Assembly (NCBI GenBank): GCA_038885615.1
Contig: JAVZZP010000001.1
Coordinates: 8,876 to 72,875, forward strand
Direction: 5' to 3'
DNA: 64,000 bases
From: Candidatus Pacearchaeota archaeon
GTDB lineage: Archaea > Nanobdellota > Nanobdellia > Pacearchaeales > GW2011-AR1
Made by a program: the position numbers and the translations under genes. Of this stretch, positions 12,762 through 63,163 are shown one piece after another. Below the pieces are notes generated by a model, which saw only the letters and a program-made list of their open reading frames with translations, made no database searches and was not told the origin of the DNA. How positions within the stretch are numbered: the stretch's first letter is position 1; each line of letters begins with the position of its first letter.

Positions 12762-13106
12762 TTAAAAACTCAAAATAAATTCAATTCTATCATACAAAAT
12801 CCTTGGTACAAGTCTATCTTTTTTACCTTTCTTTTCAGAAAAAAATTCTATAATTCCGAACTTTTCAAGCATTTTTAAGTCAGAATAAACACTCTTAAAG
12901 TCCCTTTTAAGCAATTTAGACAGCTGATAAATAGAGCTTATCTTTTCTTTTTTAAGGAAATAAAGAACTCTTCCTCTTTCTTTAGAGAGAATTTTTCTTA
13001 ATTGGGCTATATCTGCAGGGTCAAATTGCTCTTTTGATTTAAAAAATTTAGAGATAAAACCATCTTCCGACGGATTCAAATAAAAATAAAGAGTTTTTGT
13101 TGCCAT
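12762..13106 (-). CDS. Winged-helix (ArsR/MarR-like) DNA-binding protein
   Basis: RGRVLYFLKKEKISSIYQLSKLLKRDFKSVYSDLKMLEKFGIIEF is a wHTH pattern. I prefer the ATG at 13106 (MATKTLYF); the ORF track start at 13151 remains possible. Confidence 0.5.
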   Translation of the reverse strand: MATKTLYFYLNPSEDGFISKFFKSKEQFDPADIAQLRKILSKERGRVLYFLKKEKISSIYQLSKLLKRDFKSVYSDLKMLEKFGIIEFFSEKKGKKDRLVPRILYDRIEFILSF

Positions 13107-13230
13107 TTTAGAGTAAATTTTATATCTTTTTGTTATATATGGTATTTTCAAACATATATTTAAATCTTTCTCTTTTGAGCATTTGTTTTATGTTTATTTT
13201 TTCCCTAAAAATACCCTAAAAAACGAAAGA

Positions 13231-13239
13231 TTTATAAAT
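13231..13239 (+). promoter_or_regulatory. Candidate TATA box of the S-layer gene
   Basis: TTTATAAAT lies about 180 nt upstream of the ATG at 13418, which implies an unusually long leader. Confidence 0.4.
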
Positions 13240-13302
13240 AAACCGCAAAAAATCGCCCTTAAAAGAGCAAACTTTAAAAAGCCAAAATTTCTATAGAGTT
13301 TA

Positions 13303-13417
13303 TCTTATGATTCCCTAGTCATAAGATTCCGGCCAGGCTATTAGTGAAGCTGAACACGCGAAAGCGTGGCCTGAAAAGGCGGCTAACCTGATAGTGCTGA
13401 AAGGAGGTTTAAAAGAA
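13303..13417 (+). promoter_or_regulatory. Structured GC-rich 5' leader of the S-layer gene
   Basis: Hairpin TCTTATGA-ttccctag-TCATAAGA (13303-13326). GNRA hairpin CACGC-GAAA-GCGTG (13355-13368). Possible pairings GGCCA/TGGCC and CTATTAG/CTGATAG. GGAGG at 13403-13407, 10 nt before the ATG. Confidence 0.5.
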
Positions 13418-15685
13418 ATGAAATTCAAAAAAATAGTAGCAGCAATCGGAAGCGTCATGATGTTAGGCGCTACAATTGCTGGAGCTTTTGCAGCTAACTA
13501 CCCTGCACCTTTCGCTGCGTCTGACACAGTTGTTGTTTATGGAAACAACGCAGATCTAAATGCTGCAACATCCATAGCAAACGACTTGGGTAATAGACTA
13601 GGTGCTAGTGGAAGCGTGAGTGTTAGCGGAGAAAGTTATAAGATAGAGGCGTCTTCTGATAAGTGGGGTATTGGAGAAAATGCAACTGCCTTTAGAGGAG
13701 GTGTTGTTTCAAAATCCGATCTTCCACAATTATTAGCAGATGGAACAATCAGGGACAGAGAAAATAACGAAAGAAAATACACACAAAAATTACAACTGAA
13801 TGAAAGTTTAAAAATAACTCATTTCTCTGATTATGATTATAAAAAAGAAGAACCAACTGTAGGTATACATCTAGAATCTAACTCAAATGGCGAAATATTA
13901 AGATACGAATTAGAATTTACACAACAAGTTAACGCTACATTACTACAAACAAAAGAAATAACTATAATGGGTAAAAAATATTATATACATTCTGCAAGCA
14001 ATACAAAAGTAGAATTATTAGATGCAAGTAATAAAGTTATAGTAACAGAAGGAGAACAAAAAACAGTCTCTACAGATAAAAAAACATATACAGTAGAGAT
14101 TAGTTCTGTTTCTGGAACAACAAGTGATAATGCAGAAGTAAGATTGCTTGTAAATGGAGAATTAACAGATCCTATTAAAAAAAGTGGAACATATAAACTA
14201 TCTGACAACTCTTATGTAAGCGTGCTTGATATTGTTGTAGGTAACAGAGAAAGAGACAACCACAAAGTAGAGGTTGCTATAGGCAGTGGAAAAATAAAAT
14301 TACAAAATAATGCTGATGTTGAGTTGAATGATAAAGATAGCATAAGAAACTTGAGAGCTTATATCACTGGAAACAGCGCAACAGAGCTTAAAAAGATAAG
14401 TTTGGTCTGGGTTCCTTATGATGAAGCTTTCTTAACACCAGAGTCCTCATTAACTATGCCTGTATTTGAAAATGTTAAACTTGTTATGCAAGGAATTAAC
14501 TTTCCAAAGAAAGAAGAGATAAAAATTGAGGGAAATGGTGCTGATAAATTAAGAATGGTTGTTCCTATAACAGACGGAACATACAATCTTGATTTAGCTT
14601 ATGCAAACTCAACACACAGAGCTGTTGGTAACTACACAGGTCTTGGAAGAGATGCTAACAACAAATTAGTAGTTGGTACAAATTCTGTAAAACTTAATGA
14701 AAGTGCTAATGAAAAAATAGCTGTTCTTTCTTGGGTCTCTGGAAATGATGCTGAAACATATATAGTAAGTGCCAGAGCTTCAAAAGATGGAACAGTTGAT
14801 GTAGCAACAATAAGAAACGAGATTACAGGAGATACTTGTGATAAAGTTGCTGCAGGCGGAAGTTGTAGATTCGGAAGAGCAGAGGTTGTTGTTTCGGCAG
14901 TAGACGAAACTGCTGGAAATAGGTCTGTAATTTTAAATGCAGGTTCAGGAGTTTCCTTCAACAAAATATATACAAAAGAAGGATTAACAATAACTCTTCC
15001 TGCAAACAATGATTTTGATAAAGATCTTGGGGCACCTGAATTTACACTTGTTTTCCAAGAAGAAGATAAAGATGGAAAAATAGCTAACGGAAAGACTTTT
15101 AACGTTACAGCAAATATAAAGACTTTATCTTCTGAAAATAGAACTAGTGTAAAAGATACTAATGTAACAACTCAAAAAGTAGATATATCAGGAGAAGACA
15201 GATCAATAAGATATCTTGAGTCAGAATTAGCAACAAAAGTTGAATTGAGAACACCAAGCTCATCTGCTAATTCCGTTATAATAACATATCACGGAAGCGA
15301 GGTTAGCGCAGATGTTTTTGTAGCTGCATCCAGTGCAGTATCCGGAGGATCAACAGGTCTTCCAGTTGTAACAGATAGCGAAACTGACAAAATGACAGGA
15401 AAGAATCTTGTTGTTGTTGGAGGTCCTTGCGCTAATGCTGTTGCTGCAGAGCTTCTTGGTGGTAAGACATGTACTTCTGATTTCACAGCTGCAACAGGTA
15501 TTGGGGCAGGAGAATTCTTGATCCAATCCTTCAATAGAGGAGGCAAAGTCGCTCTTCTTGTTGCTGGTTATGAGAAAGAAGACACTGTAAAGGCAGCCAA
15601 TTACTTAACAAAGATTGGTGTTGATACAGCTGTCGGCAAGAAGTACAAAGGAACTTCCGAGACATCTGCTACATTAGTAGTTTAA
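13418..15685 (+). CDS. S-layer protein (Methanococcales-type N-terminal motif)
   Basis: Signal peptide MKFKKIVAAIGSVMMLGATIAGAFA followed by ANYPAPF, the S-layer N-terminal motif. T/S/N/V-rich beta-type composition with no Cys-rich or TM regions. The ATG at 13418 has an SD-like GGAGG. Confidence 0.75.
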   Translation: MKFKKIVAAIGSVMMLGATIAGAFAANYPAPFAASDTVVVYGNNADLNAATSIANDLGNRLGASGSVSVSGESYKIEASSDKWGIGENATAFRGGVVSKSDLPQLLADGTIRDRENNERKYTQKLQLNESLKITHFSDYDYKKEEPTVGIHLESNSNGEILRYELEFTQQVNATLLQTKEITIMGKKYYIHSASNTKVELLDASNKVIVTEGEQKTVSTDKKTYTVEISSVSGTTSDNAEVRLLVNGELTDPIKKSGTYKLSDNSYVSVLDIVVGNRERDNHKVEVAIGSGKIKLQNNADVELNDKDSIRNLRAYITGNSATELKKISLVWVPYDEAFLTPESSLTMPVFENVKLVMQGINFPKKEEIKIEGNGADKLRMVVPITDGTYNLDLAYANSTHRAVGNYTGLGRDANNKLVVGTNSVKLNESANEKIAVLSWVSGNDAETYIVSARASKDGTVDVATIRNEITGDTCDKVAAGGSCRFGRAEVVVSAVDETAGNRSVILNAGSGVSFNKIYTKEGLTITLPANNDFDKDLGAPEFTLVFQEEDKDGKIANGKTFNVTANIKTLSSENRTSVKDTNVTTQKVDISGEDRSIRYLESELATKVELRTPSSSANSVIITYHGSEVSADVFVAASSAVSGGSTGLPVVTDSETDKMTGKNLVVVGGPCANAVAAELLGGKTCTSDFTAATGIGAGEFLIQSFNRGGKVALLVAGYEKEDTVKAANYLTKIGVDTAVGKKYKGTSETSATLVV

Positions 15686-16070: not shown

Positions 16071-16129
16071 TAATTTTAATTCATTTCCATAACAAAAATC
16101 TTTAAAAGCTCTTTTTGGCTAATAAAAAA

Positions 16130-16690: not shown

Positions 16691-16691
16691 A

Positions 16692-43775: not shown

Positions 43776-43848
43776 TGGTCCCGCCAGGAATTGCACCTGG
43801 GATTTCTTCCACGTCAAGGAAGCGTCTTAACTACTGGACCACGGGACC
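43776..43848 (-). tRNA. tRNA-Val (GAC)
   Basis: Acceptor GGTCCCG/CGGGACC, anticodon arm CTTCC-TTGACGT-GGAAG, T arm CCAGG-TGCAATT-CCTGG. Confidence 0.9.
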
Positions 43849-43888: not shown

Positions 43889-44368
43889 TTAACAAGGAAC
43901 TTTTTTAGTTGAAAGATATGGGCATAAAATCATTTCAGTTTTTGAAGATGTAACAAAAGGTTGAATTTCAATAAAACAAACTTTTCCATAGGCTGACATA
44001 TTAACTTTATAGTTTGTTTGATTAAAGACTAATTTTATTTCTTGGTCTGGTTTGAGAGTTATATCAAACTTTCCCAGATTATAAACACCACTATCAAAAT
44101 CAGTGTTATTGTTAATCCTAACAAAAAAGCCTTTTATATTAAATCTTCCTCTATTTATTATAGTCAAATTCAATTCCTTGGATCTTTCATTAAAAAAATA
44201 ATCACTAATATAAACAGAAACTCCTTCAGGGCAACTCTCTGGTTCTGATATATCTGACTTAAATCTTAACCATGCATAAGCAATACCTGCAATAGCAATA
44301 GTTATGGAAATTAACAAAACATAAGAAACTATCATACTATCTGCTTTCTTCTTATTCAATTGCAACAT
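43889..44368 (-). CDS. Pilin-like protein (class III signal peptide candidate)
   Basis: MLQLNKKKADSMIVSYVLLISITIAIAGIAYAWL is a basic N-terminus followed by a ~22-aa hydrophobic helix. The rest is a beta-rich domain. Confidence 0.5.
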   Translation of the reverse strand: MLQLNKKKADSMIVSYVLLISITIAIAGIAYAWLRFKSDISEPESCPEGVSVYISDYFFNERSKELNLTIINRGRFNIKGFFVRINNNTDFDSGVYNLGKFDITLKPDQEIKLVFNQTNYKVNMSAYGKVCFIEIQPFVTSSKTEMILCPYLSTKKVPC

Positions 44369-44948
44369 GCCTCTCCTCGTCTTTTTCTCTTTTTATTACA
44401 AAATAAAAGTTTTTATATTTATCTAAAGGTATTTCATAGGGGATATCATCTACCCTAAATCTTATTTTTTTTTCAGGAATGCCCCCAAGTTTTATTGAAA
44501 AAATTTTATCTTTTATTTGCTGAGCTCTTAAGTCTATATTAACATTTGCTCCGCTTCTCCCAATCTGAATTGCCCCCTCTCGTTGAACATTATCAACAAA
44601 ATAATTATTTCCTTCAACAGATATGTTTATCCCTTTTTTTGCTAGATTTAAAACAGACAAATTAGAACCCTTGCCATAAAAGAAAATAAATTCTAAGTCA
44701 GGATTTTGAGAAAGATATGAGGAAGAGAACTTTCCTAAAAAGTCCTCCAACTTATCATCTCTAGTTATAAGGCCATAATCAATAACAACTGAAGATTCTT
44801 CTGAAAGCTGGTTTTTTAAAGAAATGACAAAATCACTCGAATAAAAAACATTTACCCTATTTCTAAAGGCAAAAAGAGAACCTGCTATTAAAATTATTAT
44901 AAGTGCTGCTATTAAAAAAAATTGCCCTCTTTTTTGTTTTTTTTTCAT
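44352..44948 (-). CDS. Pilin-like protein with class III (type IV prepilin-like) signal peptide
   Basis: MKKKQKRG/QFFLIAALIIILIAGSLFAF is a canonical KRG-Q cleavage context. Confidence 0.6.
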   Translation of the reverse strand: MKKKQKRGQFFLIAALIIILIAGSLFAFRNRVNVFYSSDFVISLKNQLSEESSVVIDYGLITRDDKLEDFLGKFSSSYLSQNPDLEFIFFYGKGSNLSVLNLAKKGINISVEGNNYFVDNVQREGAIQIGRSGANVNIDLRAQQIKDKIFSIKLGGIPEKKIRFRVDDIPYEIPLDKYKNFYFVIKREKDEERHVAIE

Positions 44949-44954
44949 GGTTTA

Positions 44955-45212
44955 AACAGACAGGAAGACGGCTTGATTCCACGAGAAGGTTTTCTTTGAC
45001 CTTTCTCAATCTCTTTTCTCCTCAAGCATCTAAACCATAAATTAGGGCTGCTCCGATCAAGGCCTGACCCGGTTTTCTATGGCAAGATCAAGAAGAGGGA
45101 GATCTCAGCGTCCAGCCAAAGGCCTTTTCGCTTCCTCTCACCGAAACTTCCTTGCGATCCGCCATAAAGCCCTTTTGCGGTTTAGCGTGGGGCTAGCACG
45201 CTATCTTGTCTG
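44955..45212 (-). ncRNA. ffs: Signal recognition particle RNA (7S/SRP RNA), compact
   Basis: Minus-strand read. The 5' CAGACAAG pairs with the 3' CTTCCTGTCTG. The helix-8 motif CCGGGTCAGGCC..GATCGGAGCAGCCC matches the conserved GGUCAGGUCCGGAAGGAAGCAGCC core. Hairpins AGCGTG-CTAGCCC-CACGCT and CCGC-aaaaGGGCtttat-GGCGG have complementary loops (GCCC/GGGC), as in Alu-domain helices 3 and 4. Confidence 0.75.
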
Positions 45213-45257
45213 TATTATATTATAGGAAATAGGTTTTAAAAACCTTTTTACTTAAAT

Positions 45258-48200
45258 CTAATGAACAAAAATCTCTGGATAACAAGCAGAATTTCCAAAA
45301 ACATCTTCGCAACGTATATAATAAAGCTGGCCTTTCTTTAGTCCTGTTGTAAATTCATTATCCTTAATTCTGCTCATAGTAGTTCCATTCTGGGCTACAA
45401 AAGCACAACCAAGCGAATTTAAAAATTTACAGCTGGTTGCTTTTTCGTTTAAAACTATTTTTAAATTTCCTTTGTCATTATAAACCCTTAATAATTTTGG
45501 AGGTTCTTTGTCTATAATAACCACGAGGCTATATTTATCTTGTGCCAGATTTCCTGCTGCATCTTCACACTGAACAGATATTTCATAATCTCCTTCAACC
45601 AAATTTAAGATAACATCAGTATGTGTTGTAGAGTTTGTTCTATTGAAAAATTTCCATGCGGAAGAGATATTATTTATTTTTAATTTCCACTTGCATTCTG
45701 CTTTTCCTCTTTCTACGCCATTTGCTGTTTTTAGTTGTATAGAAAGATTTTGTTTATCACTTCCTGTAATATACTCTCCTTTAGGAGAAAAATCAACTAT
45801 TTCCAAAGCCATAGAAGGTCTTAAAGAATATTCAAAAGCTCTTTGATTTTCATTTCTCTTATAGTATTGATTTTCTTTCCCTTCAAGCCATGGTTGATCT
45901 TTACATTTTATGTAAAACTTTGTAGAATTACCAACAACAGTTGTTATATTTCTTAATTCTCCTTCGCACCAATAACCTTTTGCTGTTGTTTCTTCATTTA
46001 TTTCATTATCACAAGCAAAATCGTTCTGACTAATAACCTCTTCTTCTCCTTCTTCATTGATTACTCTTGCTAAACCCATCTCTCCATATGCTTTTCCGCC
46101 GTCAAAATCCCATCTGCACTCAGCAGGCTCATTCAACTTAAACCTTATTCTTTTAGTTGTTCTGTTGAACTCTACGAAAGAGTTCGATGGTGGAACAAAC
46201 TCTAAAATTGAAGGAGGTATTTCATCAGGAGTTTTCATAACTTCTAATTGATGAACTTTTTGATTTGCATTTCCAGCAGAATCTTCACACATTATAAAAA
46301 TCTCGTACTTTCCATCTCTTGTTAGGAAAGGATAGGCTTGAATGTCTTCATTATCTATTGCAGCTCTAGGAGCTGACAAAATAAATTCATGTGTTTTTCC
46401 AAATTTGCTATCAGTTTCATATTTCATATTTTCTATATTAACTCCTCCACTCTTGAAATCAAATTTACAATAAGAATCTTCATTTGTTGTTATGGTTATT
46501 TTTACACTGCTATATGGTGGGATTGGATTTGGTGGATCCTGAGAAATAGAAATAACTGGCCCAGAAAAGTCATTAGAGCTTACACAAACCCCCGTGTCAA
46601 TTCCTCTCGGCTCCTTATACTCGCAATTCTTTCCGATTGCTTTGCATCTATATTCAGAACAAGGTAACCCGTCCGCGCCACACAATGAACAGTTGCCAGA
46701 AGAAGGTGGACGCCAAGGTTTTGCTTTGAAACTATAATAACAAGTTATTTCCCACCTGTGTTTTTCTCCTCCAGTATATTTACAAGGAATTTCTTCTATA
46801 CTCAAGGGAGCAATAGAACCAGAGGCACCAACCCAATTAGAATCTCCTGCACAATCGCTTATTCCAACCAATCTTTTACTTAAAAAACTTGTAACTCCTG
46901 GATTATTTATCGGAAGAGCTTTTTTCTGTCCGCTTTTAATGCACGCAGCTCCTAAACACCCATCATCATTTTCATCTCCGCATCTGTCTTTCCATAGTGG
47001 AGAGGCTATTGGATTATTGCTATTTGTTTCGCACTTCCAAGTCCAGCCATCATACTCTGACCAATCGGAATAACTTAGCGAAAAAATCCCTCCACACCCC
47101 CAAGCAAAATTACCGGTAGAGTTACAAGTACTTAATTTTGGATAAAGATAATAATATTCATCTCTTTTACTTCTTTTAAATCCAATATTTCGAGAATAAT
47201 CCCCTAAGCTACAAATGCCCGCACCACTTTTTTCACTACCTATTATTTTAGAAGAAATGTCTGACCCTGGAGCAATTTTTGGAACACACATACGAAGATT
47301 AAGGTCTTGTAAAAGAGGAGAAGAAACCTCCATAAGATTCTTTCCTGCTTGTGCTTGAGGAAGATTCCTCCAATCTTTTCTCTGTTGGCCGCAATAAATA
47401 GTTTCTTCTCCTTGAAACTGAATACAATCATCTAATCTTGTAATATAGCACCATTCTGGATCACAATCTTCAATTTTGTTTTCTCCTGTAACCTCGTCTA
47501 CAACATTAGCATCATAACAAGCATCCCCCCAGTTTGCAACACATTTTGCTCCTCCATCCATTGGAATACAAACCTCATTTCTATAATCTGCACAGGGCTC
47601 TGTAACAATCTCTCCATCGATACAAACCTGTCTAAAAAATCTAGATCCGACAGCATCGTTAAAAGCTGGAAGCTTCTCATCTGTTTTTTTAAACTCTGCT
47701 CCCCTAACATCGTCCGTAAGGACATTTCCATCTAAACCAATACACCAGCTTTCTCCGTTTTTTCTTTTATTCCCCCATTTATCAACACAATTTAAACTCT
47801 TACAAATTGCTTTTTTTGAGGTGTTTTGCACACAAATAAAACCTTCAGAGTATTTACATTCTTGAACTAAAGAATCTCTATTTCCGCAAGAATCAACAAA
47901 ATAAATATTTCCGTCTTCAAAACATTTTGTTCTATCTGTTTTACTACAGCGAGTTTTTAATGAGGGATCCGAACACAACTTACCCTCGTAAAATATTTTA
48001 TCTGTTCCCCTACAATTTTCTTTTTTTGTATAAGAACAAAAGTCGTAATTATAAACACAAGCGCCCATTACCCCGGAAGAAGCTAAATTTGAACATTGAT
48101 CTTCGCTCAGAGGTCTCCAGTCAACTTGAAATCCTCCAGACAGAGAGTCTAGTTCGCATTGCCTTCTGGTGGTATATTTAACTCCCAAACCTAAAACACA

Positions 48201-48395
48201 GCAACCCATTGAACATTCTGCTGAAGAACTACAAGAAGACCCAACAACTATTCCACTATTTTCAGTACAAACATTTGATGGAACCCTTTCTGAACAAATT
48301 CCGTTTGAAGGGTAAAAACAGCAAACCTCTGAAGAAACAAAGCTAAATGAAACAATTGCCAAAACTATAAATAAAAAAAATGTTTTTTTTCTCAT
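45258..48395 (-). CDS. Giant secreted Cys-rich protein with C-terminal beta-sandwich-like modules (putative adhesin)
   Basis: Signal peptide MRKKTFFLFIVLAIVSFSFVSS. Dozens of Cys in the N-terminal ~600 aa. Four C-terminal modules end in the motif C(E/K)D..GN (IMCEDSAGN, IKCKDQPW, VQCEDAAGN, IRCEDVFGN). Confidence 0.7.
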   Translation of the reverse strand: MRKKTFFLFIVLAIVSFSFVSSEVCCFYPSNGICSERVPSNVCTENSGIVVGSSCSSSAECSMGCCVLGLGVKYTTRRQCELDSLSGGFQVDWRPLSEDQCSNLASSGVMGACVYNYDFCSYTKKENCRGTDKIFYEGKLCSDPSLKTRCSKTDRTKCFEDGNIYFVDSCGNRDSLVQECKYSEGFICVQNTSKKAICKSLNCVDKWGNKRKNGESWCIGLDGNVLTDDVRGAEFKKTDEKLPAFNDAVGSRFFRQVCIDGEIVTEPCADYRNEVCIPMDGGAKCVANWGDACYDANVVDEVTGENKIEDCDPEWCYITRLDDCIQFQGEETIYCGQQRKDWRNLPQAQAGKNLMEVSSPLLQDLNLRMCVPKIAPGSDISSKIIGSEKSGAGICSLGDYSRNIGFKRSKRDEYYYLYPKLSTCNSTGNFAWGCGGIFSLSYSDWSEYDGWTWKCETNSNNPIASPLWKDRCGDENDDGCLGAACIKSGQKKALPINNPGVTSFLSKRLVGISDCAGDSNWVGASGSIAPLSIEEIPCKYTGGEKHRWEITCYYSFKAKPWRPPSSGNCSLCGADGLPCSEYRCKAIGKNCEYKEPRGIDTGVCVSSNDFSGPVISISQDPPNPIPPYSSVKITITTNEDSYCKFDFKSGGVNIENMKYETDSKFGKTHEFILSAPRAAIDNEDIQAYPFLTRDGKYEIFIMCEDSAGNANQKVHQLEVMKTPDEIPPSILEFVPPSNSFVEFNRTTKRIRFKLNEPAECRWDFDGGKAYGEMGLARVINEEGEEEVISQNDFACDNEINEETTAKGYWCEGELRNITTVVGNSTKFYIKCKDQPWLEGKENQYYKRNENQRAFEYSLRPSMALEIVDFSPKGEYITGSDKQNLSIQLKTANGVERGKAECKWKLKINNISSAWKFFNRTNSTTHTDVILNLVEGDYEISVQCEDAAGNLAQDKYSLVVIIDKEPPKLLRVYNDKGNLKIVLNEKATSCKFLNSLGCAFVAQNGTTMSRIKDNEFTTGLKKGQLYYIRCEDVFGNSACYPEIFVH

Positions 48396-49180
48396 GGAGT
48401 TTTATCACAATTTTTAATTGCAAAATGAAAGGTGTTTTTCTTTTCTGTGTAGTCTTCTATTGTGTAAACTTTTTCCCCACGTGAACCAATAAAAAAGATT
48501 ACCTTATAATCATTATACTTACTCATTAATTTAATTGTATCTGCGGTACAAGATTCCATTGGACAATTACAAGTTACTTCTTGATTTATTATTTCATTGG
48601 AAATTTGAATATAATCCCAAATATTTGAATTCACATAAACATCAAAATTTTCAAAAAAAAGTTTGCCTTCATCACTTTTTGATATTTCTATTGGCTTTCT
48701 TACTTTTAAGTAAATTCTTTTCGGCTGTATTTCTACACTAAAGTCGGTTTCTTTCATTTCTATATTAAATCCCTTATTTTTTTCTTTCATCTCTTGAAAG
48801 CATTTTTCCACATCATTTCTTATTTTATTTTCTAACTCTTCTTCAATTCTTCTTTTGCTTTGCGCATCATTTCTCGTACATATTGTTCTTTTTTGCGAGG
48901 TATAACAATGATAAGAAACATTCTTACCCTTATAAACCAAATAACTTGGAGGATTGAAATACATTCCTTTTTCTAAAAATTCCGGTAAAACATTTTCAAG
49001 GGATTTAGAAATACATGGTTTAACCTCTAGATAGGGTTCAATAGATGATTTCTTTGTGCTCTCAAACTTTGGGGATGGAAAAAGAAAAAAAAAGGCCAAG
49101 ATTGAAACTAAAATCAAAAGGCCAAAAATTATAAAAAGAGTTACTTGTGATTTCTTATTTAATCCCCTTTTATTTTCCAT
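48392..49180 (-). CDS. Pilin-like/N-terminally anchored protein, first gene of the cluster
   Basis: MENKRGLNKKSQVTLFIIFGLLILVSILAFFF. Its stop overlaps the ATG of the giant gene. Confidence 0.5.
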   Translation of the reverse strand: MENKRGLNKKSQVTLFIIFGLLILVSILAFFFLFPSPKFESTKKSSIEPYLEVKPCISKSLENVLPEFLEKGMYFNPPSYLVYKGKNVSYHCYTSQKRTICTRNDAQSKRRIEEELENKIRNDVEKCFQEMKEKNKGFNIEMKETDFSVEIQPKRIYLKVRKPIEISKSDEGKLFFENFDVYVNSNIWDYIQISNEIINQEVTCNCPMESCTADTIKLMSKYNDYKVIFFIGSRGEKVYTIEDYTEKKNTFHFAIKNCDKTP

Positions 49181-49220: not shown

Positions 49221-49294
49221 TGAGCCCGCCAAGATTTGAACTTGGGACCCCCACCTTATCAGAGTGGTGCGCTACCTGGCTGCGCCACGGGCTC
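49221..49294 (-). tRNA. tRNA-Ile (GAT)
   Basis: Acceptor GAGCCCG/CGGGCTC, anticodon arm CCACT-CTGATAA-GGTGG, T arm CCAAG-TTCAAAT-CTTGG. Confidence 0.9.
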
Positions 49295-50460: not shown

Positions 50461-50533
50461 TGGGGTTACCAGGATTTGAACCTGGGTCGCGCGCTCCCTA
50501 AGCGCGAATCGTACCAAGCTAGACCATAACCCC
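50461..50533 (-). tRNA. tRNA-Pro with anticodon AGG (A34)
   Basis: Acceptor GGGGTTA/TAACCCC, identical to the TGG isoacceptor. Anticodon arm CGCGC-TTAGGGA-GCGCG. T arm CCAGG-TTCAAAT-CCTGG. Confidence 0.8.
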
Positions 50534-50536
50534 GCA

Positions 50537-50607
50537 TGCGCGGCCCGGGAATTGAACCCGGCTCTTAACCTTGGCAAGGTTACATTCTACCGATAAACTA
50601 GCCGCGC
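50537..50607 (-). tRNA. tRNA-Gly (GCC)
   Basis: Acceptor GCGCGGC/GCCGCGC, anticodon arm TAACC-TTGCCAA-GGTTA, T arm CCGGG-TTCAATT-CCCGG. It lies 3 nt from tRNA-Pro. Confidence 0.85.
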
Positions 50608-50677
50608 CTAGAATTTTTTATTGAGCGTAGTTTAAAAAGATAACCTTTAAAAATAAAAAGACATCTTTAAAGTACAT

Positions 50678-50748
50678 GGGCTCATAGGCTAATGGTAGAC
50701 CCTCTCGCTTACACCGAGATGGCGGAGGTTCGATTCCTCCTGGGCCCA
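50678..50748 (+). tRNA. tRNA-Val (TAC)
   Basis: Acceptor GGGCTCA/TGGGCCC, anticodon arm TCTCG-CTTACAC-CGAGA, T arm GGAGG-TTCGATT-CCTCC. Confidence 0.85.
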
Positions 50749-50785
50749 TCAATAGATTTTTAAAAGAAGTTTTTTTGTTTTGTTT

Positions 50786-51364
50786 ATGGAAATAAAAAAA
50801 GAGTTGAAAAAATTTTGGGATTTTTTAAATGAAGACAGTTGGCAAAGCACGGTTGTTAGTTTAATAATTTTTTTAATTTTAATTTACTTTATAATAATGC
50901 CTTTTTTTAGTTTGGTTTTTGGCACAAAATATTTTTTAGTTATTGTTGAAAGTTGTTCTATGCACCATTCAAAAAATTTAGATGAAATTTTAGAAGAACC
51001 TATCTATAAAGAATATGGTATTCATCAAGAGAACTCATCTGATTGGAGATTAAAAAGAGGTTTTACAAAAGGAGATATAATCTTTTCTATAGCCCCTAGA
51101 AATCTAAAAGTTGGGGATGTCATAATTTTTGATGCGAGTGAAAAAGGTTATAAATATCCGATAATTCACAGAATAATAAAAATAGAAGAAAACAAAATAG
51201 TAACTAAAGGTGACAACAACAAGGGGCTTTTAGAAGTAGAAAAAAATATTTCAAGTGAACAGGTAAAAGCAAAATCTCTTTTTAGAATACCTTACATTGG
51301 ATGGATAAAACTAATTTTTTTTGACTGGAAAAAACCTCCAGAACAGAGAGGATTTTGCAAATAA
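50786..51364 (+). CDS. Signal peptidase I (archaeal/Sec11-type S26)
   Basis: N-terminal TM segment, Ser box VESCSMHH, His box IIHRII, and TKGDNN. Confidence 0.7.
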   Translation: MEIKKELKKFWDFLNEDSWQSTVVSLIIFLILIYFIIMPFFSLVFGTKYFLVIVESCSMHHSKNLDEILEEPIYKEYGIHQENSSDWRLKRGFTKGDIIFSIAPRNLKVGDVIIFDASEKGYKYPIIHRIIKIEENKIVTKGDNNKGLLEVEKNISSEQVKAKSLFRIPYIGWIKLIFFDWKKPPEQRGFCK

Positions 51365-51401: not shown

Positions 51402-51710
51402 ATGAAATTTTGTCCTAAATGCGGGGCAATGCTTATACTTAAAAATAAAAATTTTGGTTGCCCTCGATGTAATTATTCAACAAAAGAGAAAGTTGATTTA
51501 AAAGTTAAAGAAAAAATTGAAGAAAAGCAGGCTATTGAAGTTATAAAAGATAAGGATGTTGATATTCTGCCAAAGATAGCTGCTGAATGCAAAAAATGCG
51601 GCAACAAGGAAGCCTATTTCTGGACTTCTCAAACAAGAGGCAGCGATGAAACAGAAACAAGATTTTTTCGTTGCACAAAGTGTGATAACACTTGGAGAGA
51701 GTACAAATAA
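51402..51710 (+). CDS. tfs: Transcription factor S (TFS, RpoM-like)
   Basis: N-terminal ribbon CPKCG..CPRC. C-terminal ribbon CKKCGN...TSQTRGSDETETRFFRCTKC with the acidic loop. Confidence 0.85.
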   Translation: MKFCPKCGAMLILKNKNFGCPRCNYSTKEKVDLKVKEKIEEKQAIEVIKDKDVDILPKIAAECKKCGNKEAYFWTSQTRGSDETETRFFRCTKCDNTWREYK

Positions 51711-51720
51711 TTTTGTTAAA

Positions 51721-51795
51721 TGACCCCGGAGGGATTTGAACCCTCGACACCCGCGTTAAGAGCGCGGTACTCTAACCGGACTGAGCTACGGGGCC
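51721..51795 (-). tRNA. tRNA-Lys (CTT)
   Basis: Acceptor GGCCCCG/CGGGGTC, anticodon arm CCGCG-CTCTTAA-CGCGG, T arm GAGGG-TTCAAAT-CCCTC. Confidence 0.9.
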
Positions 51796-53327: not shown

Positions 53328-53400
53328 GCCTGCATAGCTCAGTTGGTAGAGCAACTGCCTTGTAAGCAGTAGGTCGGGGGTTCGACTCCCTCTGCAGGCT
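53328..53400 (+). tRNA. tRNA-Thr (TGT)
   Basis: Acceptor GCCTGCA/TGCAGGC, anticodon arm ACTGC-CTTGTAA-GCAGT, T arm GGGGG-TTCGACT-CCCTC, discriminator T. Confidence 0.9.
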
Positions 53401-55136: not shown

Positions 55137-55217
55137 CGCCCCCGCCAGGAATCGAACCTGGGAGCCCCGAAGGGCCTGGATCTCAAGTCCAGTGCAATAC
55201 CACTATGCGACGGAGGC
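55137..55217 (-). tRNA. tRNA-Ser (TGA)
   Basis: Acceptor GCCTCCG/CGGGGGC, anticodon arm CTGGA-CTTGAGA-TCCAG, long variable arm GCCCTTCGGGGC, T arm CCAGG-TTCGATT-CCTGG. Confidence 0.9.
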
Positions 55218-60045: not shown

Positions 60046-61884
60046 TTACCATCTTAACAAAATAACTAAAACTATTAATAAAATCAAAAGAATTATTGCA
60101 ATAAAAAGTATCAAATTAATGTTATTATAAGAAAAAGCCATTTTTTCTTCTTTCTGTCCTAAAAATATTTTATCATCGAATTTTTCTATTGTGTATGAAA
60201 TTTTATTTGTTCCATTCTCAAAATCCTCTATATTTTCCATTCTTCTTTTAGATGATCTAGAAGAAGCTGTTTTTTTATTCTCATCTTTTTTGCTTTCTGG
60301 CTCTTCAACAAAAAAACTTACATTTTTATAAACTAGATTTGTTCCATTAGTTGCCCAAGCATGAAGGACTATTTGACCGGATGAAAAATTGACAAAAATA
60401 GGCCCAAAATAACTAACATTAGTTCCGTTCCAATTATACCAAAAAGAATTTCCATTTGAAGATAAATTTACTAAAATTAGAGAATTGCTATATGTTTTAT
60501 TCTCGGGGCTTATTATCCTTAAGTATAGCTCCCCCATATTTTGATCGGAAGAAGCATTAACAAAGAAAAAAACAGAACTACAAGAACTTCCATTGATATT
60601 TATTCCACAAAAAGTTAGATTATAATAGTTATTAGATAGACTTAAGTTGCCTAATACATTTCTTGAGTTATTTAATAAATAAACAATGGTTCCATTTAAG
60701 TACAATGTCCAATTAACTACTTGGTTTGAGCTTCCATTAAAAAGAACAATATTGCTGTTTATTATAGAATTATTTATTGGCTGAAAAATATTTATTATTG
60801 GAATATTTATCTGTCCGCCACAAGAAAAATCTTCTATTATCCTGTATTCGTAATGGGTTTTATTTTGGAAACATCCCAAATTATTTGAGTCATATTCTAT
60901 TCTATATTTTGATTGATTTCTATGGGTTGAATTTATGCATTGAAGACTTTGCCAGTCACTCCAAAGACTAAACACAATATTGGCTTTAATTGTTCGATAT
61001 TCATAAAATATTTGAGAGGGTGCACAATTAAATAAATCATATTGAGTTAGATTTCTAACTTGTAAAAGATTTGCTCCAGAGCAGCCAATATCTTCCCAAG
61101 AACTCCAAGAGGTATTGACATAACTAGGACCAACTAACCTATATTCATAATATGTCTTATTTTGAAATGTGCCACAATTATTTTTATCATATTCTACTCT
61201 TTCCCTTCTTTCTTGTGTTTGATTCCCAACACAAGATATTTTCTGCCAATCAGACCAAGAAGTATTAACTAAAAAAGGGATACAGTAAGGTTGGCAGTTG
61301 CTAACTGCTGGTTGGCCATTTTCACAATAAACTAGCCCTGCTTCATTTGGAATACAAGAAGTTATTCTAAACTGAACAGAATCAAATGAATTTCCAGTAC
61401 CTTTAATCCAAACTTTTGAATTTTTACCTCCAAAAAAAGATCGTGAAAAAACACATACTTTATATCCCCCACCTAAATCTGCCCCGTTCCTTCCGTTTGA
61501 ACCGAAGCTATCAGAAATTCCAGCTTGAAAAGTTTCTCCGTCTTCAGGTCCATTATTGTCAAAATAATTTTTTATTAAAAGATAATAAACTCCATTTGAT
61601 AAAGGAAAATTTCTTCCTATCGATGCTCCACCCCAATGAAGACAACCAAAAGGCCCTAAATATTCTCCGCAGATTATCCCATAACTATGATCAGGAATTG
61701 TTTGAAACCAATCGACACCAAGAAGAGAATTAGAACAAGAAGAACGTTTGCCACCACAAACAATGTGATTATTATTTGTTCTCCAATTCTGCCAACCAGA
61801 ATCATAAGAAGAAACAAAACTAAAAAAGTTACTCAATAAAAAAATCAAAACAAAAGAAAATATCACTCCTTTTTTTAACTCCAT
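60046..61884 (-). CDS. Secreted surface protein: N-terminal Cys-containing domain, three WSxW (TSP1-like) repeats, sequon-rich region, C-terminal TM anchor
   Basis: Signal peptide MELKKGVIFSFVLIFLLSNFFSFVSS. Repeats at residues ~205-350. C-terminus INLILFIAIILLILLIVLVILLRW. Confidence 0.65.
   Translation of the reverse strand: MELKKGVIFSFVLIFLLSNFFSFVSSYDSGWQNWRTNNNHIVCGGKRSSCSNSLLGVDWFQTIPDHSYGIICGEYLGPFGCLHWGGASIGRNFPLSNGVYYLLIKNYFDNNGPEDGETFQAGISDSFGSNGRNGADLGGGYKVCVFSRSFFGGKNSKVWIKGTGNSFDSVQFRITSCIPNEAGLVYCENGQPAVSNCQPYCIPFLVNTSWSDWQKISCVGNQTQERRERVEYDKNNCGTFQNKTYYEYRLVGPSYVNTSWSSWEDIGCSGANLLQVRNLTQYDLFNCAPSQIFYEYRTIKANIVFSLWSDWQSLQCINSTHRNQSKYRIEYDSNNLGCFQNKTHYEYRIIEDFSCGGQINIPIINIFQPINNSIINSNIVLFNGSSNQVVNWTLYLNGTIVYLLNNSRNVLGNLSLSNNYYNLTFCGININGSSCSSVFFFVNASSDQNMGELYLRIISPENKTYSNSLILVNLSSNGNSFWYNWNGTNVSYFGPIFVNFSSGQIVLHAWATNGTNLVYKNVSFFVEEPESKKDENKKTASSRSSKRRMENIEDFENGTNKISYTIEKFDDKIFLGQKEEKMAFSYNNINLILFIAIILLILLIVLVILLRW
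60835..61272 (-). repeat. Three tandem ~48-aa protein repeats (WSxW...C...R.R/Y.YD.NNC...YEYR)
   Basis: NTSWSDWQKISCVGNQTQERRERVEYDKNNCGTFQNKTYYEYR / NTSWSSWEDIGCSGANLLQVRNLTQYDLFNCAPSQIFYEYR / FSLWSDWQSLQCINSTHRNQSKYRIEYDSNNLGCFQNKTHYEYR. Confidence 0.7.
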
Positions 61885-62636: not shown

Positions 62637-62680
62637 AAAATTTTAATTAAACTTATAAACGCAAATATCCTTTTTTTTTG

Positions 62681-63163
62681 ATGGAAAAAAGAGGCCAACA
62701 GGAAATCGCGGGTTTTGTAATTATTGTTGTTTTAGTGATGGTTGCAGTTTTTATTTTTGTTATTATGTATTTTGCTAATAAAAAAGACAATTTGCAAAAC
62801 AAAGAAGTTGAAGTTCTCCTATTGAGCATGGTGAAAATCACAACAGATTGTTTTTTGGAAGAAGGAAAACCGGCTAACCTAAGAGAAGTTCTTATTAATG
62901 CTTATGGAGAAATCCCTAAAAAGTGCAAGGGCAATGAAAAAAACTCTCGAGAATACGCTGAGGAATACATCCCAAAAATTATGAAGGACATATTAGCTTT
63001 AGAAACAAACTTTGAGGTATATTCTCTTGAAATAATTGATGAAAAAAGTGGCACCATTGTTAAGAGTTTCTCAAACGGGGATTGCCAAAAAAAAGGCGTT
63101 ATAAGAAGTGCCGATTTAATAATAAAAAGCGAGGAACTTAGGGCTTTTCTAAAAATTTGCTAG
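62681..63163 (+). CDS. Pilin-like protein with class III signal peptide
   Basis: MEKRG/QQEIAGFVIIVVLVMVAVFIFVIMYF has a KRG-Q context. ATG at 62681. Confidence 0.5.
   Translation: MEKRGQQEIAGFVIIVVLVMVAVFIFVIMYFANKKDNLQNKEVEVLLLSMVKITTDCFLEEGKPANLREVLINAYGEIPKKCKGNEKNSREYAEEYIPKIMKDILALETNFEVYSLEIIDEKSGTIVKSFSNGDCQKKGVIRSADLIIKSEELRAFLKIC

What the first reader, a model, noticed from the sequence alone, without database searches (positions are those of the whole stretch)
43889..49180. Pilin-like trio around a 1045-aa Cys-rich secreted giant: candidate type-IV-pilus tip/adhesion module of a symbiotic archaeon
Four co-oriented minus-strand genes form the cluster. A 262-aa protein with MENKRGLNKKSQVTLFIIFGLLIL has a stop that overlaps the ATG of the 1045-aa signal-peptide protein. 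Downstream lie a 198-aa protein with a textbook class III signal (KRG/QFFLIAALIIIL) and a 159-aa protein with KKKADSMIVSYVLLISITIAIAG, and these two overlap by 17 nt. The layout resembles bacterial minor-pilin plus PilY1/PilC tip-adhesin operons, but I recognise no family for any of the four proteins. DPANN archaea depend on attaching to hosts, so a pilus-displayed Cys-rich adhesin would be functionally central. No assembly ATPase, platform protein or prepilin peptidase lies in the window. A fourth KRG/Q pilin-like gene sits at 62681..63163.
Basis: partly seen in the sequence, partly recalled or inferred. Interest (0 to 1): 0.75.

Follow-up and report, generated by a model that had tools for sequence, protein, structure and literature searches.

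The report
Two surface-protein gene pairs, wrongly merged
What looked like one four-gene pilus-adhesin operon in a tiny symbiotic archaeon is really two unrelated conserved gene pairs separated by the signal-recognition-particle RNA gene: a true pilin pair, and a widespread, never-described pair encoding a pilin-like partner and a large cysteine-rich surface protein.

Summary
The four ORFs, their overlaps and their N-terminal motifs are exactly as described. But the 309-nt "gap" between the giant and the 198-aa gene holds an archaeal SRP RNA gene, and tRNA genes flank the cluster.

Comparison with 159 related loci shows two independent units.

(1) g262→giant. A g262-like gene sits directly upstream of 97/117 giant paralogs that carry the Cys-rich head, and of 0/36 rod-only paralogs. 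In most Pacearchaeota/Woesearchaeota the pair belongs to a larger unannotated cluster. That cluster holds 2–3 giant paralogs, four small class-III-signal proteins (one is the window's g161) and the S-layer gene.

(2) SRP RNA→g198→g159. This is conserved in at least 52/80 loci. PilB/PilC lie within 8 kb in 43/80. g159 is a UpsA-type archaeal type IV pilin.

The two units never co-occur elsewhere: 0/80, 0/79, and 16 assemblies hold them on separate contigs or more than 50 kb apart.

The giant is a secreted, disulfide-rich head on a four-Ig-domain rod, with no PilY1-like or enzymatic fold. g262 has a conserved [KR][GAS]↓Q N-terminus and a globular fold with no solved relative.

A pilus link for the giant is plausible but unproven. 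The "one module" reading is not supported.

The parts
49221..49294 (-). tRNA-Ile(GAU), immediately upstream of g262. It bounds unit 1 on its 5' side.
   Evidence: ARAGORN and Rfam tRNA at 65.6 bits. A TTTATAAAG box lies about 27 nt before the g262 ATG (read from the sequence).
48392..49180 (-). g262: 262-aa class-III-signal-like partner protein. The site reads KKS|QVTLFIIFGLLILV; relatives have KRG|QLTLFII. A helix at 9-33 is followed by a floppy linker and then a disulfide-containing alpha/beta domain with no solved relative.
   Evidence: ORF. Family of at least 173 clusters, none with a name other than 'hypothetical protein' and none with a Pfam domain. The Gln after the [KR][GAS] is invariant. 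AF2 pLDDT 86. No Foldseek or PDB-sequence match. Directly upstream of 97/117 head-containing giant paralogs.
45258..48395 (-). Giant: 1045-aa secreted protein. It has a Sec signal peptide (1 to about 22), a Cys-rich head (about 25-315, motifs GCC, RKNGESWC, EPCADYRNEVC), a middle region (about 316-555, partly low confidence), a PCSEYRC connector and four Ig-like beta-sandwich domains (about 610-1045). There is no C-terminal anchor.
   Evidence: 174 homologs, and relatives in 337 species-level genomes. Nearly all invariant columns are Cys. Big_13 at 29.1 bits. AF2 pLDDT 85. Foldseek finds only tandem Ig/FnIII arrays.
44954..45215 (-). Archaeal SRP (7S) RNA gene, lying between the two protein-gene pairs. 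It is the conserved 5' neighbour of g198.
   Evidence: RF01857 at 67.9 bits, E 3.8e-15, full-length model match. Local GC 0.50. Homologous elements lie upstream of g198-family genes in at least 52/80 loci and in none of 79 giant loci. The L147 copy reaches the Rfam gathering score.
44352..44948 (-). g198: 198-aa class-III-signal protein (KRG|QFFLIAALIIIL), a putative minor pilin or pilus-associated protein. It is a distant paralog of g262.
   Evidence: 629 relatives by exhaustive HMMER, all about 170-200 aa and starting M..KRGQF[FY]. Q9 is invariant. hhalign against the g262 family gives probability 93%, E 3.5e-7 over 84 columns. A g159-like gene lies immediately downstream in 68/80 loci.
43889..44368 (-). 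g159: archaeal type IV pilin of the UpsA/Pilin_N type (KKA|DSMIVSYVLLISITIAIAG). It overlaps g198 by 17 nt.
   Evidence: NCBIfam UpsA E 2.7e-10. 38/46 family members hit UpsA and 18/46 hit arch_flag_Nterm. The family profile hits the solved pilus subunit 8fk7 at E 1.4e-5. PilB/PilC are nearby in relatives.
43776..43848 (-). tRNA-Val(GAC), immediately downstream of g159. It bounds unit 2.
62678..63163 (+). g161: a member of family D, the last of four small class-III-signal proteins that follow the giant paralogs in canonical clusters. Here it is stranded about 14 kb from the giant.
   Evidence: Family-D HMM E 2e-40. D follows the giants in 24 loci.
12762..15685 (.). The dispersed tail of the canonical cluster: a winged-helix regulator (family E, 12762-13151, minus) and an S-layer protein (13394-15685, plus).
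   Evidence: Family E HMM E 1.4e-41 and family F HMM E 8e-260. The L061 counterparts hit Pfam HVO_A0114 and S_layer_C.

Best explanation
The region holds two separate, individually conserved units that are neighbours only in this genome.

Unit 1 (g262→giant, translationally coupled by an ATGA overlap) is a reduced version of a large, clade-wide and so far unannotated cell-surface gene cluster of Pacearchaeota/Woesearchaeota. The giant is exported by Sec. It folds into a disulfide-locked head on a rod of four Ig-like domains and has no anchor of its own. g262 has a conserved [KR][GAS]↓Q hydrophobic N-terminus and specifically accompanies proteins that carry the Cys-rich head.

I infer that g262 is the membrane- or filament-embedded partner that holds and presents the head-plus-rod protein on the cell surface, most likely for cell-cell or host contact. 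I also infer, without having shown it, that g262 and the related small proteins A-D of the canonical cluster are handled like minor pilins by a class III signal peptidase.

Unit 2 (SRP RNA→g198→g159) is the conserved head of this clade's type IV pilus locus. g159 is a UpsA-type pilin. g198 is a distant paralog of g262 and is probably a minor pilin or pilin partner. In this lineage the pair has been separated from PilB/PilC.

Shown: the gene structure, the SRP RNA, the synteny statistics, pilin membership of g159, the predicted folds, and the absence of known families for g262 and the giant.
Inferred: signal cleavage, the g262-giant interaction, and the adhesion role.
For: - SRP RNA between the pairs and flanking tRNAs.
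- A g262-like gene lies directly upstream of 97/117 head-containing giant paralogs and of 0/36 rod-only paralogs, Fisher p 6e-21. 4-nt overlaps are the commonest junction.
- The canonical cluster PCNA-[g262-giant]x2-rod-A-B-C-D-E-S-layer recurs across dozens of loci. The window retains D, E and the S-layer gene elsewhere.
- The giant has a Sec signal peptide, 60 Cys that are nearly all invariant, and four Ig-like domains. Foldseek finds only adhesion-type Ig arrays.
- g262 has an invariant Gln after [KR][GAS], and its N-terminal 20 residues are more conserved than the rest (0.59 vs 0.46).
- g262 and g198 are related: hhalign probability 93%.
- Unit 2: g159-like immediately downstream of g198-like in 68/80 loci. 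PilB within 8 kb in 43/80, with T2SSE and T2SSF confirmed. SRP RNA upstream in at least 52/80. g159 is a pilin.
- Independence of the units: 0/80 and 0/79 cross-occurrence. 16 assemblies hold both apart.
Against: - No experimental or multimer-model evidence exists for a g262-giant complex.
- g262's model has a proline-rich, low-confidence linker between the N-terminal helix and the globular domain, and no pilin-like fold. That fits an ordinary signal anchor as well as it fits a pilin.
- The window's g262 has Ser rather than Gly/Ala at the predicted -1 position.
- No prepilin peptidase, PilB or PilC could be looked for in the rest of this genome.
- The very high conservation of the giant across an order-level clade is unusual for an adhesin. 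It may point to a core envelope role instead.
- In one close relative (L009) a pilin/PilB locus lies directly downstream of the giant. So some loose pilus-giant linkage cannot be excluded.
Confidence: 0.55

Rival explanations
1. One reading: all four genes form one type-IV-pilus tip module, in which the three pilin-like proteins (g262, g198, g159) assemble into a pilus that displays the giant as a PilY1-like tip adhesin.
For: - All three small proteins have class-III-like N-termini.
- g159 is a real pilin.
- g262 and g198 are distant paralogs.
- In L009 a pilin/PilB locus lies just downstream of the giant. Together with the window, that makes two different juxtapositions of pilus genes with the giant in the 1045-aa subclade.
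Against: - An SRP RNA gene separates the pairs, and the 42 nt between the giant's stop and the SRP RNA contain a TATA-like box.
- Cross-occurrence is 0/80 and 0/79.
- 16 assemblies hold the pairs on separate contigs or more than 50 kb apart.
- The giant has no propeller, vWA or DUF2341.
- Canonical giant clusters bring their own set of small class-III proteins (A-D), not g198/g159.
Confidence: 0.12
2. g262 plus the giant (and the larger cluster) is a core envelope scaffold tied to the S-layer and has nothing to do with type IV filaments. g262 and families A-D are uncleaved type II signal-anchor proteins. The giant is a structural spacer or strut of the pseudo-periplasm or S-layer rather than an adhesin.
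For: - The canonical cluster ends at the S-layer gene and a wHTH regulator, and contains no ATPase, TadC or peptidase.
- The giant is strongly conserved in 337 species-level genomes, like a housekeeping component.
- g262 has a flexible linker and a non-pilin fold.
Against: - The +1 Gln is invariant, and [KR][GAS] at -2/-1 is conserved in g262, g198, C and D. The sequence-level conservation of the N-terminal helix exceeds that of the giant's own signal region.
- g262 is a paralog of a protein that heads the pilus locus.
Confidence: 0.28
3. The adjacency and the pilin-like motifs are coincidental. The small ORFs are fast-evolving membrane proteins with no shared function, and the giant is a generic secreted Ig-repeat protein.
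For: None of the four hits a family at curated thresholds, except one Big_13 domain.
Against: - Each pair is conserved as a pair over deep divergence (68/80; 97/117).
- The families are large (629, at least 173 and 174 members).
- Both structural models are confident.
Confidence: 0.03

Closest known systems
Bacterial minor-pilin/PilY1 tip complexes of type IV pili (P. aeruginosa FimU-PilVWXE + PilY1) and the T2SS GspH-I-J-K pseudopilus tip
   Same: Several small proteins with prepilin-type N-termini are encoded beside a large secreted, non-pilin surface protein that has no anchor of its own. Canonical clusters here have four small proteins (A about 170, B about 315, C about 175, D about 170 aa). 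That resembles the four-minor-pilin sets, which include one larger member.
   Different: There is no beta-propeller, vWA or DUF2341 domain in the giant. No ATPase, platform or peptidase lies in the cluster. The system is archaeal and disulfide-rich. g262 has a linker and a fold unlike pilins. The resemblance is architectural only; no homology was detected.
Archaeal type IV pilus loci with large adhesin-like or S-layer-like, Ig-rich, Cys-containing proteins (Makarova et al. 2016, PMC4858521; TFF preprint 10.64898/2026.04.22.720090)
   Same: Large signal-peptide proteins with Ig folds and conserved cysteines are co-encoded with diverse small class-III-signal proteins. S-layer-like genes are sometimes in the same neighbourhood.
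   Different: Those loci are defined around the ATPase and TadC genes. The g262/giant cluster contains neither and sits apart from the PilB/PilC locus. Neither paper, as far as I could search them, describes these families.
Sulfolobales UpsA/UpsB pilins and the Pilin_N / arch_flag_Nterm archaeal pilin superfamily
   Same: g159 and its family match the UpsA model over most of its length and the pilin N-terminal domain. They also match solved archaeal pilus subunits and sit next to PilB/PilC in relatives.
   Different: Scores are far below the UpsA equivalog cut-off (40.5 vs 130 bits). It is a distant DPANN pilin family, not a Ups ortholog. It is always preceded by g198 and usually by the SRP RNA gene.
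Methanococcus maripaludis EppA-processed Epd pilins (class III signals with Gln at +1; from my own knowledge of Szabo et al. 2007 and Ng et al. 2011, not checked here)
   Same: The [KR]G↓Q motif with a conserved +1 Gln is seen in g262, g198 and families C and D.
   Different: No EppA-like peptidase could be sought in this genome. The globular domains are unrelated.
Aureispira GhpA 'grappling hook' and RTX/Ig-repeat adhesins (best Foldseek matches)
   Same: The giant's C-terminal half matches them as tandem Ig-like beta-sandwich rods.
   Different: Similarity is generic: TM 0.15 or less on the whole chain and 9-14% identity. The Cys-rich head has no structural or sequence relative.

Membership tests
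Archaeal type IV pilin (Pilin_N / arch_flag_Nterm / UpsA-like): g159 | Short basic leader, [KR][GA] cleavage site and a roughly 20-aa conserved hydrophobic helix that matches pilin N-terminal models | tested here: met
   KKA|DSMIVSYVLLISITIAIAG. UpsA NF046073 E 2.7e-10 over residues 8-133. 38/46 family members hit UpsA and 18/46 hit TIGR02537. All scores are below the curated equivalog cut-off, so this is superfamily membership and not orthology.
Archaeal type IV pilin: g159 | Similarity to solved archaeal pilus subunits that extends beyond the helix | tested here: met
   The family profile against PDB finds 8fk7_A at E 1.4e-5 (columns 11-88). Weaker hits are PilA2, Iho670 and FlaF.
Archaeal type IV pilin: g159 and g198 | Encoded with the PilB-type ATPase and PilC/TadC platform | tested here: inconclusive
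   Not in this window. In relatives PilB lies within 8 kb in 43/80 loci, confirmed as T2SSE E 7e-34 and T2SSF E 8e-15. The rest of this genome could not be read.
Class III (prepilin-type) signal peptide: g262, g198, g159, g161 | Sequence motif: basic residue at -2, G/A/S at -1 and a hydrophobic stretch from +1, all within the first 30 or so residues | tested here: met
   Relaxed FlaFind-type pattern found as KSQV@10, RGQF@7, KADS@8 and RGQQ@5. The +1 Gln is invariant in the g262 and g198 families. The N-terminal block is the best-conserved part of each family.
Class III (prepilin-type) signal peptide | Actual cleavage by a PibD/FlaK/EppA-type peptidase encoded in the genome | not testable with these tools
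   No peptidase is in the window. The parent contig is not retrievable. A strict GxGD[..][KR] multi-TM screen of the fetched loci found none, but that motif is too strict to be informative.
Type IV pilin fold: g262 | A continuous N-terminal helix of about 50 residues packed on a beta-sheet or Ig-like globular domain | tested here: not met
   The AF2 model (pLDDT 86) has helix 9-33, then a low-confidence Pro-rich linker at 34-48, then an alpha/beta domain. No pilin appears among the Foldseek PDB matches, where the best is E 0.013 and TM 0.12. hhalign against the g159 family gives probability 3%.
PilY1/PilC-type pilus tip adhesin: giant | C-terminal beta-propeller, with or without a vWA domain; in archaea, DUF2341 | tested here: not met
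   Pfam finds only Big_13, DUF4625 and Y_Y_Y Ig-like hits. The AF2 model shows four beta-sandwiches and no propeller. The top 50 Foldseek hits are Ig/FnIII arrays.
Bacterial Ig-like domain (Big_13, PF19077): giant C-terminus | Pfam score at or above the gathering threshold | tested here: met
   29.1 bits against a threshold of 27, residues 920-962. Four tandem beta-sandwich domains in the model.
Archaeal SRP RNA (RF01857): 44954-45215 | Covariance-model match to the full model, including the helix 8 GGAGCA motif | tested here: met
   67.9 bits, E 3.8e-15, model positions 1-317 with one 40-nt deletion. This is below the gathering score of 96.5. The homologous element in L147 reaches 96.6 bits, and L159 and L142 hit other SRP-clan models.
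Single operon or functional module of all four protein genes | Conserved co-occurrence of the four families in related genomes | tested here: not met
   0/80 g198 loci hold a giant and 0/79 giant loci hold a g198-family gene. In 16 shared assemblies the two are always on separate contigs or more than 50 kb apart.

The most novel reading that the evidence does not exclude
The g262/giant pair is the minimal remnant of a previously unrecognised, clade-wide surface organelle of Pacearchaeota/Woesearchaeota. In this reading a type-IV-filament-derived short fibre is built from five unannotated class-III-signal families (g262, A, B, C, D). It displays disulfide-locked head-and-Ig-rod proteins, uses the PilB/PilC machinery encoded elsewhere, and serves as the host-contact apparatus of these uncultivated symbionts. 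Separately, the pilus locus of the whole clade is physically locked to the SRP RNA gene, which suggests coupled expression of the secretion RNA and the pilins.
Probability: 0.3. Interest if true: 0.8.

Novelty: new variant of a known kind. Interest (0 to 1): 0.55.

Why it matters
Pacearchaeota and Woesearchaeota are abundant, uncultivated, genome-reduced archaea thought to live attached to hosts, and nothing is known about how they attach.

This analysis replaces a plausible but wrong four-gene model with two concrete units that can be tested. One is a conserved pilin pair at the head of the pilus locus. The other is an unannotated partner-plus-giant pair that belongs to a cluster of about 12-15 kb, present in hundreds of species-level genomes next to the S-layer gene.

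These families (g262, the giant, A-D, g198) have no Pfam, NCBIfam or PDB relatives. They are therefore obvious targets for cryo-ET, surface proteomics and multimer modelling.

The rule that g262 accompanies only head-bearing paralogs predicts a specific interaction surface.

The clade-wide linkage of the SRP RNA gene to a pilin pair is an unexplained regularity. It may bear on how these cells co-regulate secretion and surface structures.

Tried and rejected
- A whole-window Rfam search at gathering thresholds missed the SRP RNA. It appeared only with E-value filters on the gap.
- The search for related loci with the 34-sequence giant alignment failed for lack of a conserved stretch. A 14-sequence subset worked.
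- The word-indexed search with g262 alone found only 16 close relatives. A 35-sequence profile was needed.
- I tried to read the rest of the parent contig (about 280 kb) through the look-up of encoding contigs with four window proteins, to look for PilB, PilC or a prepilin peptidase. All four returned 'not on record'.
- A strict GxGD[..][KR] multi-TM screen for prepilin peptidases in all fetched loci found nothing. The motif is probably too strict, so this is uninformative.
- PDB sequence searches with the profiles of g262, the giant and g198 found nothing significant. PHROGs found nothing, so a viral origin is not indicated.
- Weak DUF7261 hits (11/60 g198 members) and DUF7289 hits (family D and a pilus-locus protein) are leads only.
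- The 'arCOG01314 putative secretion system' and the DPANN family cls.004306/NEQ255 (PMC5898192, PMC6393860) were considered as possible prior descriptions. The former has MoxR/vWA components that are absent here. The latter could not be mapped to any of these families without its sequence.
- Families A, B and C are absent from the window even with unfiltered HMM searches.
- The bacterial promoter/terminator scanner was not used because it does not model archaeal promoters. TATA-like boxes were read by eye.
- Model coordinates are not exposed to scripts, so disulfide geometry and a head-only fold search could not be done.


Full report
**1. Observation**

The four minus-strand ORFs exist exactly as listed: 48392-49180 (262 aa, "g262"), 45258-48395 (1045 aa, "giant"), 44352-44948 (198 aa, "g198") and 43889-44368 (159 aa, "g159").
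- g262 and the giant overlap by ATGA. g198 and g159 overlap by 17 nt.
- The giant has 60 Cys, 48 of them in residues 1-604, and a Sec-type signal peptide (MRKKTFFLFIVLAIVSFSFVSS).
- g198 has KRG|QFFLIAAL and g159 has KKA|DSMIVSYVLLISITIAIAG.
- The context is a low-GC (about 0.31) archaeon with gyrase, FtsZ, aIF5B, Elp3 and TyrRS.
- A neighbouring 633-aa protein is a "PACE-CTERM" putative S-layer protein (NF033506, E 1e-91), and homologs come from Pacearchaeota/Woesearchaeota/Nanoarchaeota MAGs.

**2.

The 309-nt spacer between the giant and g198 is G+C-rich (0.50 against 0.31). It is an archaeal SRP RNA gene: RF01857, 44954-45215 on the minus strand, 67.9 bits, E 3.8e-15, full model 1-317, including the GGUCAGGCC…GGAGCAGCC helix-8 motif. 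The score is below Rfam's gathering score, which is why the default scan missed it.

tRNA-Ile (49221-49294) lies just upstream of g262 and tRNA-Val (43776-43848) just downstream of g159. The layout is therefore:

tRNA | g262-giant | SRP RNA | g198-g159 | tRNA

The 42 nt between the giant's stop and the SRP RNA contain a hairpin and T-run and a TTTTTAAAA box (read). That is consistent with termination of the giant's transcript and an independent SRP RNA promoter. This part is inference.

**3. The giant and g262 form a conserved pair**

The giant family has 174 database clusters; sources give no name or only "hypothetical protein". Relatives occur in 337 species-representative genomes. Nearly all invariant columns are cysteines.

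In 79 fetched loci, g262 relatives occur in 71, immediately upstream of a giant paralog. Most genomes carry a larger stereotyped cluster:

PCNA – g262 – giant(1200-1400 aa) – g262 – head-only paralog(450-680) – [small lipoprotein-like] – rod-only paralog(700-950, N-terminal TM) – A(about 170) – B(about 315) – C(about 175) – D(about 170) – E(minus strand; wHTH, Pfam HVO_A0114) – S-layer (Pfam S_layer_C)

Families A-D all have class-III-like N-termini. The window's g161 is family D (E 2e-40). The window's 12762-13151 and 13394-15685 are families E and S-layer. So this genome holds a dispersed, reduced version of the cluster. A, B and C are not in the window.

Mapping each paralog onto the window's giant shows that g262-like genes precede 97/117 ORFs that contain the Cys-rich head (query residues about 25-315) and 0/36 rod-only ORFs (about 555-1036). 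Fisher p is 6e-21. g262 therefore goes with the head, not with the Ig rod.

**4. Structures**

*Giant.* AF2 with a 96-sequence alignment gives pLDDT 85 and pTM 0.63. The model shows a signal helix, small beta-rich disulfide-type modules to about residue 380, a low-confidence stretch (386-458), helices 467-510, and four beta-sandwich domains from about 610 to 1045. There is no C-terminal anchor.
- Foldseek against PDB returns only tandem Ig/FnIII arrays: PTP-delta, the Aureispira GhpA grappling hook, complement components and an RTX adhesin. Whole-chain TM is low. There is no enzyme and no beta-propeller.
- Pfam gives one Big_13 domain above threshold.
- The family profile finds nothing in PDB sequences.

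*g262.* AF2 with 16 sequences gives pLDDT 86 and pTM 0.74. The model shows helix 9-33, a Pro-rich low-confidence linker (34-48), then an alpha/beta domain.
- It has no significant Foldseek match (best E 0.013, TM 0.12) and no PDB sequence match.
- This is not a recognisable pilin fold.
- Across 35 diverse members the Gln following [KR][GAS] is invariant. The window copy reads KKS|Q where relatives read KRG|Q.
- The +1…+20 block is better conserved than the rest (0.59 vs 0.46). The giant's own signal region is not (0.44 vs 0.48).
- The broad g262 family has at least 173 clusters, named only "hypothetical protein" where named at all, and with no Pfam domain.

**5. g198 and g159 are a different conserved unit**

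g198 looked like an orphan in the giant loci (0 hits). Exhaustive HMMER then found 629 relatives, all about 170-200 aa and beginning M..KRGQF[FY]LIAAVII, with Gln9 invariant.

In 80 loci fetched with this family:
- a g159-like gene lies immediately downstream in 68, typically overlapping by 17-35 nt;
- a PilB-like ATPase lies within 8 kb in 43, at a median distance of 2.6 kb;
- no locus has a giant, and only one has a g262-family gene.

The ATPase is T2SSE (E 7e-34) with a PilB3_C domain. The following gene is T2SSF/TadC (E 8e-15). More Pilin_N-type pilins lie between.

g159 is a true archaeal pilin:
- NCBIfam UpsA E 2.7e-10 over residues 8-133;
- 38/46 family members hit UpsA and 18/46 hit arch_flag_Nterm;
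- the family profile finds the solved archaeal pilus subunit 8fk7 (E 1.4e-5) and, weakly, PilA2, Iho670 and FlaF.

In L099 the g159-type pilin is a 660-aa modular pilin carrying Laminin_G_3 lectin domains.

**6. SRP RNA is locked to the pilin pair, not to the giant**

nhmmer with the window's SRP RNA found 68 matches, all in g198 loci and none in the 79 giant loci.
- The SRP RNA lies upstream of g198 on the same strand within 1.2 kb in 52/80 loci.
- Four more cases are masked by over-extended ORF calls, and nine lie 1.3-3.7 kb upstream.
- Five loci lack upstream sequence.
- Rfam at curated thresholds confirms SRP-clan RNAs at these positions. L147 scores 96.6 bits on Archaea_SRP.

In relatives the spacer is typically 33-50 nt and carries an AT-rich TATA-like box about 25-30 nt before the ATG, for example GCATAAATATTTAAAC in L080-L083. 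In the window the spacer is only about 5 nt. Here g198-g159 must be transcribed from within or upstream of the SRP RNA gene (inference). Why a 7S RNA gene is conserved at the head of a pilus locus is unexplained. I found no mention of it in the literature searches.

**7. Independence of the two units**

- No g198-family gene occurs in any giant locus, and no giant occurs in any g198 locus.
- Sixteen assemblies appear in both locus sets: CAZJUG01, CAZLFJ01, CAZKBE01, CAZGZN01, JAIFVW01, JAHJSH01, JAYONY01, CAYNLR01, CAZNJU01, CAYXTB01, CAYHBQ01, BDTJ01, JABHNB01, MNVZ01, CABMGO01 and JBBSZK01.
- In every one the units are on different contigs, or, in CAZNJU010000001, more than 50 kb apart.
- These include the four closest relatives of the window's giant.
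- The only hint of linkage is L009, where a pilin/PilB locus (not g198-g159) follows the giant.

**8. A link at the protein level**

Profile-profile comparison shows that the g262 and g198 families are distant relatives: probability 93%, E 3.5e-7 over 84 columns. The match covers the class-III-like N-terminus and the first helix and strands of the globular part.

Families C, D and A/B join a looser web through their N-terminal 20-50 residues. g159 stands apart as the classical pilin.

So each pair begins with a paralogous class-III-signal "leader" protein followed by its cargo or partner: a pilin in one case and a Cys-rich head protein in the other.

**9. Interpretation**

Shown:
- two conserved pairs, with an SRP RNA between them;
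- pilin identity of g159;
- the secreted head-plus-Ig-rod architecture of the giant;
- the specific association of g262 with the head;
- no known family or fold for g262, the head or g198.

Inferred:
- g262 anchors and presents the giant on the cell surface;
- its conserved [KR][GAS]↓Q N-terminus is processed like a prepilin;
- the canonical cluster (g262, A-D, giants) builds a pilin-primed surface structure.

The main rival is that these are uncleaved signal anchors of a core, S-layer-linked envelope scaffold. The strong conservation of the giant and the non-pilin fold and linker of g262 favour that view. The invariant +1 Gln and the paralogy to a pilus-locus protein argue against it.

**10. 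Comparison with the literature**

Large Ig-rich, Cys-containing "adhesin or S-layer-like" proteins next to diverse small class-III proteins are a known theme of archaeal type IV filament loci (PMC4858521; 10.64898/2026.04.22.720090). Unrecognisable DPANN pilins have been noted (PMC6393860).

Those descriptions are centred on ATPase/TadC loci. I found no description of the g262/giant cluster or of the SRP RNA-pilin linkage. The DPANN-specific family cls.004306/NEQ255, described as "secreted, next to S-layer-like proteins", may overlap one of these families, but that could not be checked.

**11. Verdict**

- The real content is a new variant of a known kind: pilin-like proteins plus a large surface protein.
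- It adds two findings of its own: the clade-wide unannotated cluster, and the SRP RNA-pilin linkage.
- Interest is 0.55.

Noticed in passing
window 44954-45215 (minus strand); loci L080-L159: An SRP RNA gene lies directly upstream of the g198-g159 pilin pair in at least 52/80 distantly related genomes, usually with a 33-50-nt spacer that carries a TATA-like box. In the window the spacer is only about 5 nt, so g198 has no room for its own promoter.
   Followed up: yes
window 12762-13151 (-), 13394-15685 (+), 16115-17378 (+): The S-layer protein (NYPAPF N-terminus; S_layer_C type in relatives), its upstream wHTH regulator (HVO_A0114-like) and two downstream membrane-anchored proteins form the conserved tail of the canonical giant cluster. 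Here they lie about 30 kb from the giant, next to gyrB/gyrA.
   Followed up: partly
window 18399-20300 (-): A 633-aa protein matches NCBIfam PACE-CTERM 'putative S-layer protein' end to end (E 1.3e-91). It is a second S-layer-type candidate and a marker of Pacearchaeota.
   Followed up: no
window 60046-61884 (-): A 612-aa secreted protein rich in Cys and N-x-S/T sequons, with a C-terminal TM anchor and no Pfam or NCBIfam family. It lies one gene away from g161.
   Followed up: no
L099 8534-10516: A g159-type pilin N-terminus is fused to two ConA-like lectin (Laminin_G_3, E 1e-31) modules and a pentaxin-like segment. This looks like a 660-aa 'modular pilin' adhesin at the same position, downstream of g198.
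   Followed up: partly
database proteins P0016-P0111 (long giant paralogs, 1150-1400 aa): Most long paralogs begin with a conserved 'KK-IIA[SG]FE-LxLMxVSxFAFSY' segment. It is a sequence-conserved TM helix with a Glu and is not a canonical [KR]G cleavage site. The window's 1045-aa subfamily has plain Sec signal peptides followed at once by GCC.
   Followed up: partly
L009 13113-16148: In one close relative (47% identical giant), three pilin-like genes and a T2SSE ATPase lie directly downstream of the g262-giant pair. The same MAG keeps its SRP RNA-g198-g159 unit on another contig (L080).
   Followed up: partly
window 50461-50750, 51721-51795, 53328-53400, 55137-55217: The window has a dense scatter of tRNA genes, 12 in all. 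Three lie within 300 nt at 50461-50750, and many protein genes are bounded by tRNAs.
   Followed up: no
window 50780-51364 (+) and 51402-51710 (+): A signal-peptidase-I-like protein (weak Peptidase_S26 hit, SCSM motif) is followed by a TFS/RpoM-like Zn-ribbon protein. In L065 the same two genes precede PCNA and the giant cluster, which may be a remnant of ancestral synteny.
   Followed up: no
window 7490-12688 (-): gyrB and gyrA are separated by two small ORFs: a 145-aa multi-TM protein and a 136-aa four-Cys-pair Zn-ribbon protein with overlapping stops and starts. This is an unusual insertion within a gyrase operon.
   Followed up: no
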